Below, in pieces: positions 7,478 through 56,176 of a stretch of 64,000 bases of DNA (its first letter is position 1; the number at the start of each line of letters is the position of its first letter). The translations under genes and the position numbers were made by a program. The DNA is from Eledone cirrhosa. Its lineage: Eukaryota. The notes under the pieces were generated by a model that ran no database searches, was not told the DNA's origin, and worked only from the letters and a program-made list of their open reading frames with translations. The DNA lies in the NCBI GenBank assembly GCA_964016885.1, contig OZ024753.1:15996001-16060000 (forward strand). Reading direction: 5' to 3'.

Positions 7478-8290
7478 TCATCATCATCATCACCGTTTTA
7501 TGTCCGTTCTTCCACGTTAGCATGGGTTAGACGGGTTGTCCTGTTGTGGGCAGTGTCCGGTCGGTTGACCATGCCTTGCTCATACGGGAACTGATTCTGG
7601 CTTGATTTTTACAGCTGGATGCACTTCCTAACACCAACCTCATTTACAGTGAGTGCTGGGTGCTTTTTTTCCGTGGCGCCTACATGTCCACTTTACAGTG
7701 TGGGCTGGGTGCATTTTTGCCGTGGCACCTCCACGATCACTTTGCAGTGGGAGGGTGTGGGGGCATATTGTCTATATGGTTCAGCTTCGGCTTGTACCCG
7801 TGGGGGGTTCGGGTCTGCTGTATTACTGTGTGACGCCAGAGGTCATTGTCATGTGTCATCACCTGTGAGGGGGGTAATTGGGTAAGGTCGGCTTTAATCA
7901 CCTCATCCCAGATCTTCTTGGGTCTCCCCACTCCGCGGTTTCCATCAACTTCTAGTGCTCTACACCTTTTTATGCAGCTGTCATCCTTCATACGCATCAC
8001 ATGTCCATACCAACACAACCGCCTCTCCTGCACACAGCATTTGATTCCTCTTATTCTCAGTCTCTCTCTCAATTCATTTATGCTTTGCCGTTCGCGTATA
8101 TTACTATTACACATCCATCGGAGCATGCAGGCTTCGTTTCTTTCTAATCTATGAAAGTCTTCCACAGACAGTGCCTAGGTCTCACTACCATGTAACATTG
8201 CTGTTCGTATACATGGATCATACAGTCTGCCTTTCATTTTGAAGAAAAAGACTTTTGCAGCTAGCAGTGGAAGTAGCTCCCTGAATGTTC
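7478..8290 (-). mobile_element. 5'-truncated RTE-clade LINE (family B): RT C-terminus, 3' UTR and (GAT)n tail
   Basis: ORF 7737-8165 contains RLERNEACMLRWMC…[12 protein letters not shown]…GRPKKIWDEVI, typical RTE C-terminal motifs. The 3' UTR is shared with SINE tails. Confidence 0.92.
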
Positions 8291-9028
8291 TTTCTAATGC
8301 CAACCATTCTGGTGTATACCAGGTTGTTTGCCTCATGGTACCATCACTAGTGGCTGGTCAGTAAATTTAATGTTAAAATGATGATCATCATCATTTCATA
8401 TCTCTGCCGTTCCATGCTTGGACAGGTCACCACAGACCAAGTCAGTACTTAATCAAAGCTATTGTCCTTCTAGACAGGCCAACATCCATATCTTGCTTAG
8501 GGATGACTTCTATTGCTCGATGCCCTTCCTAACACCAACCACTTTCCAGTGAGAACTGGGTGTATATTATTATGGCACCAGGAATAAGGAGGTTGACATG
8601 TTCTTGACTTGACACAACAGAAAAAACCTTCTCAGACTTTTGTTTGGTATGTTAATAGCCTAAAAAATACAATATTCATATAAATTTCTCAACAAGAAAG
8701 ATGAACAAACACTGAATTTTAAATCTTTAATTTTTAATTCTTTTTAATTGTAATATTCAACGTTTGATAAGATGGATTTCACTGATATATTGAAACCAAA
8801 TACTTTATATATATTATATACATTATAAAACTCTTTTTTTAAAAGAATTGTCCCTCTCATTTTTTCAATAATGTAACTTTAATCAAGAAAAAAAAAAAAG
8901 AAAAACAGACTAAAATGTATTTTCCGTGCTATTTCCAATTCCACCCCACTCTCTCTATATATACACACACAAACGAATCAAACATTATTATTAATGTTCC
9001 ATATAACCCATATATATACATATAATCA

Positions 9029-9090
9029 AGGGCGGTGCCCCAGCATGGCCTCAGCCGGATGGCTGAAACAGGTAAAAGAGTAAAAGAGTA
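9029..9090 (+). mobile_element. SINE 3' tail fragment (GGCGGTGCCCCAGCATGGCC…GAAACAGGTAAAAGAG)
   Basis: Similar decayed tails at ~5660-5720 and ~13345-13385. Confidence 0.6.
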
Positions 9091-9148
9091 ATATATGTTT
9101 GTGAATGTGTGTATATATATATAGGGAGAGAGAGAGAGAGAGAGAGAG

Positions 9149-9866
9149 AGAGAATTAGTACATTTACCAACATATGTGTACAGATGTTCACCTATGCTAG
9201 CAAATATATATGTTATGTCTTAGTACCTTTGTGGTTCTATGCAGGGGGATGCAGAACAATTATATGAAAGACGTAAAATAAGAAAATTTTAAAAATTAAA
9301 AATCAACTTACTTTTACGTCTTTCATATAATTGTTCTGCATCCCCCTGCATAGAACCACAAAGGTACTAAGACATAACATATATATTTGCTAGCATAGAT
9401 GAACATCTGTACACATATGTTGGTAAATGTACTAATTCTCTATATTTATCTCCAAATTATTTGTTGAGCAAAACTTGCCAAAATTTACTGCTGATTCATG
9501 GTAGTAGTAGGCTCTTGTCATAATACCACCCCGCTCCTAACTGATTAACCTCAGTGTCACGTGATTGATTCTTTAGAATCTGCCACTGACCAGAGGCAGT
9601 GAATTTTTTCAGTGCTCCGGAATTTAGTCCTCGCTGGATTTATTCCATCCACTGAATTATTATTAATTTTATATGGGTTCCTAGTGTCCGCGCATCGCCT
9701 GGAACTTAGCTTAAAATAGACTCCCTGATGACGTAAGGAATTCTCTATAGTTATATTATGTAACTATATTTATCCCCTTACAGAAACTAATTAGTTGGAG
9801 TGAAAATTTTAGTAAGTAACTTCATTTTTAATTTTTAAAATTTTCTTATTTTACGTCTTTCATATA
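9149..9866 (+). mobile_element. Non-coding Penelope-like/retrozyme-like cassette: ~537-bp unit preceded by an inverted partial copy
   Basis: 9149-9278 is the reverse complement of 9312-9441, and 9261-9311 is the reverse complement of 9816-9866. TTTTACGTCTTTCATATA occurs at both 9312 and 9849. It contains a hammerhead and is flanked by (GA)n and (TA)n. Confidence 0.8.
9720..9801 (+). ncRNA. Type-I hammerhead ribozyme motif (minimal, palindromic stem III)
   Basis: Stem I ACTCC/GGAGT, core CTGATGA, stem II GTAAGG/CCTTAC, GAAA, stem III CTAATTAG, GUU cleavage triplet ending at 9796. Confidence 0.8.
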
Positions 9867-9935
9867 TATATATATATATATATATATATATATATATATA
9901 TATATATATATATATATATATATATATTTACATAT

Positions 9936-10250
9936 GCAATGTGAAATAAAGTGTCTTGCTCAAGGAAACAACACATCGCAGACCGGGTGATGTGTTGTTT
10001 CCTTGAGCAAGAAACTTTATTTCACATTGCTCCAGTTTACTCAGCTGTAGAAATGAGATGATAGGGACTGGAGTCCCTATCATTCCACTGTAATGTGGTC
10101 GTGGAGGTGCCACGGAAAAAAAGCACCCAGCACTCACTGTAAATGAGGTTGGTGTTAGGAAGGTCATCCAGCTGTAGAAATCAAGCCAGAATCACTTCCC
10201 ATCCCACCCTTGCAAGCAGGGAAAAGCAGAGGTAAAAATGATGATGATGT
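9936..10250 (+). mobile_element. 5'-truncated CORE-like SINE (type-A tail) with a 5' fold-back duplication
   Basis: 9936-9977 is the reverse complement of 9989-10030. Body and tail match 14074-14420. Confidence 0.88.
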
Positions 10251-10766
10251 TTATATATATATATTTACATATTTTTATATATATATATATACATATATAT
10301 ATATATACATATATATATATATATATATATATATAATGTGCTTTTTCATAAATACAGATGAAGGCGAACTAGCCAGTTTTAGAATTCCCTTTTTCGGATT
10401 ATATTACTGTGAGAGCCCTGGTTTTCTGTTGAGCTCTGCTGATGATTGAAATTCCAACCGTGACCATCTCCACTGAAAGTTTTCATGAAATAGTCTTTTA
10501 AGACTATACAGAGCATTTGATGTTATTCCAAATTGAAGGATAAGTGTTTCAAACTTTATTTTATCATGAGTTAAAGGTCTATAGATTTTCCCTGGATTTT
10601 ACTAAATTCTGTGGATGAATTTATATCCTGATTCTCTTTTGAGATGAGTTTGAGTTATTTTTCCTAAATCTTTCGTTAACTACTTTTCCCATCTTGACGT
10701 TATAGTCGCATATATGTTATAGAATGCCGTTAGCTTCTTGCTAAAACAATCTCTATACCTCTCATT

Positions 10767-54506: not shown

Positions 54507-54811
54507 ATAATTGTTTCTACTTTTGGCACAAGGCCAGCAATTACCCCAGTGCATTACTGGTACTTTATTTTATCAACCATGTAAGGATGAAAGGCAAAGT
54601 TAACCTCAGCAGGATTTGAACTCAGACCATAAAGGGCCATAACTATGCTGCAAAGCAAGGCGTCTGACTCTCTACCGATTCTGCCATGATTTCTGATTTA
54701 GGCACAAGGGCAACAATTTTAATGGAGGGGAAAGTCAATGAAATCAACCTCAATGCATTACTGGTACTTTATTTTATCGACCCTGTAAGCATGAAAGGCA
54801 AAGTTAACCTG
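54507..54811 (-). mobile_element. Family-M SINE (54507-54685) plus an adjacent diverged SINE fragment (54686-54811)
   Basis: Reverse-complement matches to 5989-6180. Confidence 0.85.
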
Positions 54812-54817
54812 TTCTAT

Positions 54818-55020
54818 TTAATAATAATAATGAAATTATTGTGTACAGTACTCAGGTGCACTACAATTCATCAAAGGTGCATGTATAGTACATAGAATAA
54901 TGTACAAATGTCAGAAAAGAGAACAGTGCATAAGTCATGATATACATGTGTGTATGTGTATGGAGGGGGGATATCAGGTGTAGTGTTGGCAAACTTCAGG
55001 AAGCATAAAGGTTTTAAAAG
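54818..55020 (-). mobile_element. 3' end of a LINE, probably CR1/L2-type
   Basis: The minus strand ends a frame …FKTFMLPEVCQHYT*, then 3' UTR and an (ATT)n tail. The same terminus is at 5933-5986. Confidence 0.6.
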
Positions 55021-55198
55021 AGTTTTTGTCTATGATTTTAAAAAAACTGAACTGCTATCATTGTTGAAAGGTTAAGAAGACATCAATCAAATATTGATAG
55101 ACAATTGTAATTATTGGAAATTACAGTAATAAAATGATAATTATTCAAAGTGTGAAATTACTGGATAAATCCCATTTGCCTCAGAGGAATGAAAACTA

Positions 55199-55450
55199 AT
55201 CATCATCATCATCATCATTTAACATCCATTTTCCATGCTATCATGGGTTAGATGGGCTGTACCATTAGAGGCAAGTTGGATCAGGTTACCATATCGTGTT
55301 CAGACAGAACTGTTTCTGGGTAAATTTCTATGGATGGATACCCTTCCTTACACCAACCTCGGTGGGATTTGAATGCAGAACGTAAAGGGTCATAACTATA
55401 TGTCACTAAGCATATTGTCCAACACTCGACCGGCTCTTACAATCCACCAC
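55199..55450 (-). mobile_element. Junction of a family-M SINE 5' half (~55355-55450) with an RTE-type tail (55199-~55358)
   Basis: …CCTTACACCAACC|TCGGTGGGATTTGAA…, with AACC shared at the join. Confidence 0.6.
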
Positions 55451-55740
55451 ACTAATAGTTTGTAATAATAAAAGGTAGTTTAAATTAGATATAGATAAAA
55501 TACTCCTGGAAAGGTAAAACAAAGTCAATAAAGACAGCTGTGAGAATCAAAAAACACAGCTCACGTATCCATGCTAAAGATAGAGAAGCCATCACAATCA
55601 TTTTAACGTTGCCATCTAGATAACTGCTCAACAATAACATGTTGCTACGGAGTAAATCCATGAGATATGTTCTCCGGGACACGATCCACAAATAGAACAT
55701 ATTTAGGTTAACTATTCAAGAAAGATTTGAAATACACATT

Positions 55741-56176
55741 GGAGGCACATGGCTTAGTGGTTAGAGCATTTGCCTTGCAATCGAAAGGTTGTGAGTTCAA
55801 TTCTCAAAACCAGTTGATGTGTTGTTTCCTTGTGCAAGACACTTATTTCACATTGCCCCAGTTTACACTGCTGTAGAAATGAGATGATTGCAATGGGGTC
55901 ACCATCATTCTACTGCAAAGTTGTCGTGGAGGTGCCACGGCAAAAGAGCACCCAGCCCACATTGTTAAGTGGTCGTGGAGGCGCCATGGCAAATAAAGCA
56001 CCCAGTACTCACTGTAAATAAGGTTGGTGTTAGGAAGGGCATCCAGCTGTAGAAATCAAGCCAGAATCAGTTCCTGTATGAGCGATACAAGGTCAGCCAA
56101 CCAGACTCTGCCCACAGCAGGACAACCTGTTCTACGCATGCTAGCGTGGAAGAACGGACGTAAAACGATGATGATG
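55741..56176 (+). mobile_element. Full-length CORE-like SINE, type-B tail, two internal ~48-bp units
   Basis: Its 3' ~265 bp are colinear with the LINE 3' UTR at 7478-7750 (minus strand). Confidence 0.92.

What the first reader, a model, noticed from the sequence alone, without database searches (positions are those of the whole stretch)
7478..56176. One SINE with two alternative LINE-derived tails: a tail swap at a CCCGT microhomology, with both donor LINEs present
Seen: all CORE-like SINEs share head and body, and the body continues into sequence matching the 3' UTR of the LINE at 7478-8290. Type-B copies (43679, 55741) follow that LINE to its end (…CAGTTCCCGTATGAGC…AACCCATGCTAGCGTGGAAG…). 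Type-A copies (~9980, 14074, 39148, 49808, 50921) diverge after CAGTTCCC(G/A)T into CCCACCCTTGCAAGCAGGGAAAAAGCGGACGTAAAATGA. That is the 3' end of the different LINE at 15051-15100 (AAGACCCGTCCCACCCTTGCAAGCAGGGAGAAGCGGACGTAAAATGA). Known: stringent LINE RTs recognise their own 3' tail and SINEs borrow it. Inference: a template switch at CCCGT let the SINE use LINE family A, and the five type-A copies show the chimera then amplified.
Basis: partly seen in the sequence, partly recalled or inferred. Interest (0 to 1): 0.75.

Follow-up and report, generated by a model that had tools for sequence, protein, structure and literature searches.

The report
SINE swapped tails between two LINEs
A short jumping element in this animal genome comes in two forms whose ends match two different retrotransposons, and the commoner, on average younger form likely arose by swapping its last 45 or so bases, probably so that the second retrotransposon's enzyme copies it; this is a clear new example of a known process.

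Summary
One tRNA/CORE-type SINE carries LINE-B's 3' UTR and ends either in LINE-B's end (1,299 pattern matches genome-wide) or, after a five-base CCCGT overlap, in LINE-A's end (14,832). The SINE-A and LINE-A ends agree at 43 of 43 majority positions. B-tailed copies are older on average (3.4% versus 2.6% divergence, p=0.003; ages overlap) and share head states with an older third form, SINE-C. Corrections: the two ends are homologous predicted stem-loops; LINE-A's lies inside its ORF; a LINE-B subfamily is as young as LINE-A, so the SINE did not flee a dead partner; 48 LINE-B bodies carry the A tail, but they look like scattered secondary recombinants, not a family. Both LINEs have at least 5,000 copies, so their presence in the window means little. 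Template switch versus nested insertion, and which enzyme copies SINE-A, remain untested. SINE tail exchange is well known.

The parts
7477..8285 (-). 5'-truncated LINE-B copy: end of ORF plus about 270-nt 3' UTR (two 49-nt units, then the B end and TGA repeats); donor of the SINE's UTR and B tail
7584..7588 (-). First CCCGT of the LINE-B UTR, the site where SINE-A leaves LINE-B; a second CCCGT 53 nt further 3' is the true homologue of LINE-A's
15049..16051 (-). 5'-truncated LINE-A copy (97.7% to full-ORF copy L258); the ORF runs through the terminal stem-loop and stops at 15063-15061
15094..15098 (-). CCCGT of LINE-A, at the 5' base of the predicted outer stem; LINE-A side of the junction
14074..14417 (+). 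Full SINE-A copy: tRNA-like head (14083-14140), CORE-like body, 11-bp hairpin (14217-14242), one UTR unit, junction 14357-14361, A end, TGAAA/TGA repeats
9976..10250 (+). 5'-truncated SINE-A copy, with an inverted piece of its body at 9936-9977
39148..39537 (+). SINE-A copy with two UTR units and B-like (ancestral) head states
49805..50098 (+). 5'-truncated SINE-A copy; the only one with an exact CCCGT junction
50921..51235 (+). SINE-A copy with a 19-nt internal deletion
43679..44052 (+). SINE-B copy, one UTR unit, B-type head states
55741..56178 (+). SINE-B copy, two UTR units, but A-type head states (possible mosaic)

Best explanation
One tRNA/CORE-type SINE ends in either LINE-B's or LINE-A's 3' end, and the A form likely arose once from a B-tailed ancestor when reverse transcription begun on LINE-A RNA probably jumped to the SINE at a shared CCCGT, after which LINE-A's protein likely copied it. 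Shown: anatomy, donors, copy numbers, a common junction, relative divergence and head states. Inferred order: older SINE-C (same head, unrelated tail) gave SINE-B by taking the 3' UTR of the LINE-B1 subfamily; SINE-A then replaced the last 100 or so bases with LINE-A's 45-nt end. The swap dropped 53 nt and exchanged one predicted two-stem hairpin (inner loop CUAG) for its homologue (loop CAAG). The likely mode of action is the usual one: RNA polymerase III reads the head, the LINE protein binds the terminal stem-loop, and target-primed reverse transcription starts in the TGA repeats, often in TA microsatellites. My odds: descent B to A 0.85; template switch rather than nested insertion or DNA recombination 0.55; LINE-A as the main mobiliser 0.65.
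For: Counts: SINE core + A tail 13,207 and 1,625; SINE core + B tail 726 and 573. Of 30 A-junction loci, 26 are SINEs, 4 truncated, 0 LINE. SINE-A and LINE-A ends agree at 43 of 43 majority positions. Non-CpG divergence: A 2.6% versus B 3.4% (54 copies each, p=0.003). LINE-A 2.2% (27 of 30) matches SINE-A (p=0.13); LINE-B1 4.2% (14 of 19) matches SINE-B (p=0.24). 46 of 54 SINE-B tails are B1-type and 3 B2-type. LINE-B's two-unit UTR survives in 44% of B but 11% of A matches. SINE-C (8.0% divergence, 10 of 14 copies) shares B's state at two head sites. The stem model pairs 90.9% of 110 cells across 11 ends. LINE-A has a 1,025-aa open frame with endonuclease and RT.
Against: Ages overlap: two-unit A and B copies do not differ (2.6% versus 2.8%, p=0.18). 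At a third head site (a CpG) SINE-C sides with A (6 A, 3 G), and B's majority has a one-base loss in the body hairpin, so modal B is not A's direct parent. LINE-B2 is as young as LINE-A (1.9%, 20 of 27, p=0.54), so a B partner was still available. The ends are homologous and might be cross-recognised. Single-sequence folds are not better than shuffles (z -0.5 to -1.5 for LINE ends, +1.0 for the 14074 SINE end), and the stem model was drawn from these sequences. Nested insertions that join SINE-A into LINE-B copies exist (L128, L129), so DNA-level routes are real. Samples are the first matches of exact patterns, mostly from contig C1, which favours young copies.
Confidence: 0.6

Rival explanations
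1. Same descent, different join: a LINE-A copy truncated to about 45 nt inserted into (or recombined with) a genomic SINE-B copy, its 5' end annealing at CCCGT, and that locus became the source gene.
For: Nested joins of an A end into LINE-B copies with the B remnant still downstream are seen in L128 and L129, and a patch of A inside a B end in L126. Very short LINE-A insertions exist (L084 and L088 match only about 45-50 nt upstream of the stem). Both routes are named for SINE module exchange in PMC4758252 (passage).
Against: Only 3 of 30 chimeric LINEs show a B remnant (2 by script, 1 by eye). No founder locus was found. Template switching is the route that the same paper favours. Nothing tested separates the two routes.
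Confidence: 0.3
2. The swap is functionally neutral: these sister LINE proteins accept either stem-loop, and SINE-A's eleven-fold lead comes from a good source locus, its head changes or its shorter length.
For: The A and B ends are homologous with the same predicted fold. The proteins are 63-65% identical. Flank preference is alike: TA repeats follow 9 of 30 LINE-A, 17 of 46 SINE-A, 10 of 26 LINE-B2 and 10 of 27 SINE-B ends. SINE-A keeps 115-165 nt of LINE-B UTR.
Against: SINE-B faded while LINE-B2 was active (3 of 54 tails are B2-type), SINE-A's age matches LINE-A's, and the loop differs; in zebrafish L2 LINEs the loop decides specificity (PMC4176376, section 13).
Confidence: 0.3
3. The swap happened first in a LINE: a LINE-B with LINE-A's end replicated, and the SINE took its whole tail from that family.
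For: 48 such chimeras exist by exact pattern; several extend more than 2 kb upstream.
Against: They are 0.9% of LINE-B matches (48 versus 5,047). They do not cluster on a tree of LINE-B bodies (15 changes for 20 of 48 rows, shuffled mean 15.6; poorly resolved; 29 of 77 rows too short). They carry tail variants found in SINE-A but in 0 of 30 LINE-A (13 of 30 and 7 of 30), and 12 of 13 B2-bodied ones lose the downstream B2 marker that 21 of 27 ordinary B2 copies keep.
Confidence: 0.07
4. SINE-A is the original, and B-tailed SINEs are only recurrent recombinants of SINE-A with LINE-B.
For: Some B-tailed copies have A-type heads (window 55741; 4 of 35 at one site), and the reciprocal chimeras prove that such exchange happens.
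Against: Most B-tailed copies have their own head states (20 of 23 and 30 of 35 scorable, against 3 of 30 and 5 of 38 in A), shared with SINE-C, and they are more diverged. The UTR inside SINE-A itself comes from LINE-B.
Confidence: 0.04

Closest known systems
tRNA-CORE-RTE SINEs with exchanged tails: WALLSI2, SINE2-2_ACar, ERE4B, IdioSINE2 (Kojima 2018, PMC5786205; parts 2-4 of 5 of the text and supplement passages read)
   Same: [quoted passage not shown]
   Different: Here both partner LINEs, both SINE forms and an older third form lie in one genome at 2-8% divergence, with a base-exact junction. The 5'-UTR-like segment was taken from LINE-B's 3' UTR, not from a bipartite non-autonomous LINE.
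Mollusc SINE module shuffling (Matetovici et al. 2016, PMC4758252; passages)
   Same: Families sharing head and body with different tails; template switch and non-allelic recombination named as mechanisms.
   Different: In the passages read, the partner LINEs of those tails were mostly unidentified; here both are identified.
Octopus OR2 CORE-SINE (Ohshima and Okada 1994; seen only as cited in PMC4758252 and PMC5804259)
   Same: A CORE-SINE of an octopus; this genome is likely an octopus (inferred from repeat content recalled from memory and from earlier scan notes).
   Different: No OR2 sequence was available, so identity with OR2 was not tested.
Stringent 3' stem-loop recognition by zebrafish ZfL2-1 and ZfL2-2 (PMC4176376; abstract and section 13)
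   Same: Two LINEs with similar terminal stem-loops that differ in the loop.
   Different: Those are L2-clade LINEs tested by assay; nothing was assayed here, and stringency of these LINEs is assumed.
RTE-2_OV of Octopus vulgaris (PMC9115989; section 6 and passages)
   Same: Single-ORF octopus LINE with endonuclease and RT, with a microsatellite starting at the ORF's end, as in LINE-A.
   Different: 1,109 aa with a C2H2 finger, against 1,025 aa with a PHD match here; sequences not compared.

Membership tests
tRNA-derived SINE | tRNA-like head | tested here: met
   Rfam tRNA model matches 14083-14140, 28.1 bits, E 0.00086, just under the gathering score of 29; ARAGORN finds no intact tRNA.
tRNA-derived SINE | Short, non-coding, high copy, LINE-derived 3' end with tandem repeat | tested here: met
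   330-440 nt; at least 16,000 pattern matches; ends match LINE-A or LINE-B.
tRNA-derived SINE | Target-site duplications | tested here: inconclusive
   Non-simple duplications of 9 nt or more in 3 of 46 SINE-A (control 0.8) and 0 of 27 SINE-B; flanks are mostly TA repeats.
tRNA-derived SINE | Transcription by RNA polymerase III | not testable with these tools
   No assay possible.
CORE-SINE | CORE domain after the head | tested here: inconclusive
   15 of 17 bases match the CORE of WALLSI2 as printed in the PMC5786205 supplement, compared by eye; no profile or full-length CORE alignment was run.
CORE-SINE | Same head and core with alternative LINE-derived tails | tested here: met
   Tails A, B and C on one head and core.
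Octopus OR2 family | Sequence identity with OR2 | not testable with these tools
   No OR2 sequence in the papers or supplement searched (0 hits).
RTE-clade LINE (LINE-A, LINE-B) | Single ORF with AP endonuclease and RT, short 3' tandem repeat | tested here: met
   LINE-A: 1,025 aa, PF03372, PF00078, PF00628. LINE-B: 1,048-aa open frame, 63% identical. Both end in TGA repeats.
RTE-clade LINE (LINE-A, LINE-B) | Placement in the RTE clade by RT phylogeny with named references | not tested
   Homologues returned were unnamed or hypothetical; the RTE label rests on architecture and recall.
Stringent SINE-LINE pair | Shared 3' sequence able to form a stem-loop | tested here: met
   43 of 43 majority positions shared; two-helix model pairs 90.9% of 110 cells, 3 pairs change on both sides, 6 of 500 shuffles reach the covariation score; single folds not significant.
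Stringent SINE-LINE pair | LINE protein recognises only its own tail | not testable with these tools
   Needs binding or retrotransposition assays.

The most novel reading that the evidence does not exclude
A SINE defected from a still-active LINE to a sister LINE by exchanging one 45-nt terminal stem-loop, and that change alone gave it an eleven-fold lead. The C-to-B-to-A series, with long-ORF copies of both partners in one genome, would then be a ready-made natural test of tail discrimination by RTE-type proteins. In addition, the LINE-B lineage appears to have moved a 5'-UTR motif into its 3' UTR, from where the SINE took it, giving SINE-A a LINE-A-like 5' motif and LINE-A 3' end by a new route.
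Probability: 0.4. Interest if true: 0.55.

Novelty: new member of a known kind. Interest (0 to 1): 0.35.

Why it matters
Tail exchange is the standard account of how SINEs outlast and change their LINE partners, but published cases are mostly inferred from old, diverged consensus sequences. This case is young, has a base-exact junction, an older outgroup form and both partner LINEs with long open frames, so partner choice can be assayed. It also shows that partner change need not follow the death of the first LINE, and that about 1% of LINE-B copies are SINE-LINE recombinants. It does not reveal a new mechanism.

Tried and rejected
Target-site duplications could not tell retrotransposition from DNA recombination, because flanks are TA microsatellites. 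Flank preference did not tell LINE-A from LINE-B. A simple 53-nt deletion of SINE-B was rejected: the A end is LINE-A's, and the deletion form had 0 matches in 331 loci (not searched genome-wide). A two-step route through a swap at the homologous second CCCGT has 5 matches genome-wide, 2 with a full B stretch and 3 small patches; none amplified, so it is neither supported nor excluded. No third family carries the A end among held loci: 108 SINE-type, 37 LINE-A, 3 other, of which 2 truncated and 1 an older LINE-A relative. Sequencing runs: no RNA holder listed. Contigs of four runs from other coded organisms (X5-X8) cover the A junction with only 17-24 bases on the tail side, under the 31-base bridging rule, so they are not counted. 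One marker (m1 for B-tailed groups) was mis-scored by my script and was ignored; the end-finding search failed and was redone. The original CORE-SINE paper could not be read (not held). Paper searches listed nothing on this octopus SINE pair or on a 5'-UTR motif moved to a LINE 3' UTR; Repbase, SINEBase and most subscription papers are not searchable here, so absence from print is not established.
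Full report
Observation. All SINEs share a tRNA-like head (Rfam tRNA, 28.1 bits, E 0.00086, just under the gathering score), a CORE-like body (15 of 17 bases match WALLSI2's CORE by eye), an 11-bp hairpin and one or two 49-nt units that match LINE-B's 3' UTR. Five copies continue into LINE-A's end and two into LINE-B's. 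Only 1 of the 5 A copies reads CCCGT exactly; the others differ at the CpG or the first base. The window is G000:C13:15996001-16060000 of a 3.0-Gb genome, likely an octopus (inference from recalled repeat content and earlier scan notes, not tested).

Copy numbers. Exact-pattern counts, all lower bounds, with 0 matches for each reversed control: A junction 21,409; B junction 5,736; LINE-A end 5,040. With matched anchors: SINE core + A tail 13,207 one-unit and 1,625 two-unit; SINE core + B tail 726 and 573; LINE-B body + B tail 5,047; LINE-B body + A tail 48. Of the first 30 A-junction loci, 26 are SINEs, 4 truncated and 0 LINEs; of 30 B-junction loci, 17 are LINE-B, 8 SINE and 5 truncated. Among unselected neighbours in the fetched loci there were 27 SINE-A, 4 SINE-B, 11 LINE-B, 0 LINE-B with an A tail and 11 truncated or other. 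With at least 5,000 copies each, finding both LINEs in one window says nothing about where the swap happened.

The donors. LINE-A has a 1,025-aa open frame with endonuclease, RT and a PHD match. The frame runs through the terminal stem-loop and stops just before the TGA repeats, so the borrowed tail is coding sequence. A LINE-B copy has a 1,048-aa open frame, 63% identical to LINE-A. The majority ends of SINE-A (54 copies) and LINE-A (30 copies) agree at 43 of 43 positions. The A and B ends are homologous. LINE-B's UTR holds CCCGT twice, 53 nt apart; the second is the homologue of LINE-A's, but SINE-A joins at the first. A two-helix model pairs 90.9% of 110 cells across 11 ends from several families, with 3 pairs changed on both sides and 6 of 500 shuffles reaching the covariation score; slid controls pair 28-47%. 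The model was drawn from these sequences, and single folds are not better than shuffles, so the structure is a prediction. The junction sits at the 5' base of the outer helix; the inner loop is CAAG in A and CUAG in B.

Order of events. Non-CpG divergence from each group's majority, with anchors and three of the four diagnostic sites masked: one-unit A 2.6% versus B 3.9% (30 each, p=0.006); two-unit A 2.6% versus B 2.8% (24 each, p=0.18); pooled 2.6% versus 3.4% (p=0.003). With all four sites masked the one-unit result is the same (p=0.004). LINE-A is at 2.2% (27 of 30 usable), LINE-B1 at 4.2% (14 of 19; one further row left out for B2 markers) and LINE-B2 at 1.9% (20 of 27). 46 of 54 SINE-B tails are B1-type, 3 B2-type, 5 unclear. 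B keeps LINE-B's two-unit layout in 44% of matches, A in 11%. A third form, SINE-C, has the same head and core with an unrelated tail (14 matches) and is older (8.0%, 10 of 14 copies). At two head sites most B copies (20 of 23, 30 of 35) differ from most A copies (27 of 30, 32 of 38), and SINE-C has B's state (7 of 7 read by eye; 6 of 8, none with A's state). Against this: at a third, CpG site SINE-C leans to A's state (6 A, 3 G, 1 C), and most B copies lack one base of the body hairpin. So A likely branched from a B-tailed ancestor rather than from today's commonest B, and the two then overlapped in time. Samples are first matches of exact patterns, mostly on contig C1.

The refutation test. 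Such copies exist (48; 30 examined), but they do not look like a family. They occur in both LINE-B subfamilies (17 and 13). They are unclustered on a tree of LINE-B bodies (20 of 48 rows, 15 changes, shuffled mean 15.6; 29 of 77 rows too short; 1 of 45 branches strongly supported). They carry two tail variants seen in SINE-A (22 and 13 of 46) but in 0 of 30 LINE-A: 13 and 7 of 30 chimeras. 12 of 13 B2-bodied chimeras lack a downstream B2 marker kept by 21 of 27 ordinary B2 copies. They are best read as repeated SINE-A by LINE-B recombinants. Three show B remnants downstream, as nested insertion or conversion would give.

An extra twist. The 49-nt unit and the stretch after it in LINE-B's 3' UTR match LINE-A's 5' UTR just before the start codon (80% over 55 nt, E 9e-8; score 71 against a maximum of 41 in 500 shuffles). 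Two LINE-B 5' ends examined show no such match (scores 20 and 25). More distant LINE families in the window share this 3' layout at 69-83%, so it predates the SINE. SINE-A thus has the tRNA, CORE, 5'-UTR-like, 3'-end order described for RTE-dependent SINEs (PMC5786205), reached here through LINE-B's 3' UTR (inference).

Mechanism. Best reading: a B-tailed SINE and LINE-A met during reverse transcription; cDNA begun on LINE-A RNA jumped at CCCGT; the product became a source gene copied mainly by LINE-A's protein. The descent is well supported. The join could equally be a 45-nt LINE-A insertion into a genomic SINE-B, and nothing here separates the two. That LINE-A's protein is the mobiliser rests on end identity, matching ages and analogy with L2-clade LINEs, where the loop sets specificity (PMC4176376, section 13). 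The young LINE-B2 subfamily (3,149 matches) shows the old partner lineage was not extinct.

Comparison and verdict. Tail exchange in CORE-type and mollusc SINEs is described, with template switch and recombination as proposed routes (PMC5786205; PMC4758252; PMC5804259 passages). SINE-LINE pairs of the RTE clade are common (PMC3747384 passages; PMC6007223 abstract). Eight paper searches listed no account of this pair, but repeat databases could not be searched. This is a new, well-resolved member of a known kind. Interest 0.35.

Noticed in passing
window 48439-49634: A 48-nt satellite (24.4 copies) resembles the 49-nt UTR unit of these LINEs and runs into a B-like 3' end at 49512-49803.
   Followed up: partly
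L241-L254; L196, L202: SINE-C: same head and core, an unrelated tail of about 200 nt ending in TTTACC-like repeats, about 8% diverged; its partner LINE was not sought.
   Followed up: partly
L258:1770-1960 and window 7586-7750: A motif of LINE-A's 5' UTR recurs, duplicated, in the 3' UTR of LINE-B and related families, and was not found in two LINE-B 5' ends.
   Followed up: partly
window 15049-16051; L258:1957-5034: LINE-A has no real 3' UTR: its ORF runs through the terminal stem-loop. A PHD-finger match lies just after the RT match, as in many unnamed relatives.
   Followed up: partly
window 14217-14242 and the other SINE copies: An 11-bp inverted repeat joins the core to the LINE-B UTR; it matches neither LINE's 5' end and its origin is unexplained.
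   Followed up: partly
window 9936-9977; L128, L193: Fold-back (inverted) copies of the core at the 5' end of truncated SINEs.
   Followed up: no
window 6577-6695 (-); L012, L024, L042, L084, L138: Further, more distant SINE families with the same core and other tails.
   Followed up: no
window 16384-16984, 25552-27340, 31222-32237, 36255-37380, 39705-39967: Fragments of further sister LINE families with homologous ends; one family has the A-type loop on a B-like stem.
   Followed up: partly
window 28100-31230: Looks by eye like fragments of a more distant LINE, partly inverted; not analysed.
   Followed up: no
window 1-3045 and 56177-64000: Long tandem arrays (about 40-nt and 47-nt units); the second begins right at the end of the SINE-B copy at 55741.
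   Followed up: no
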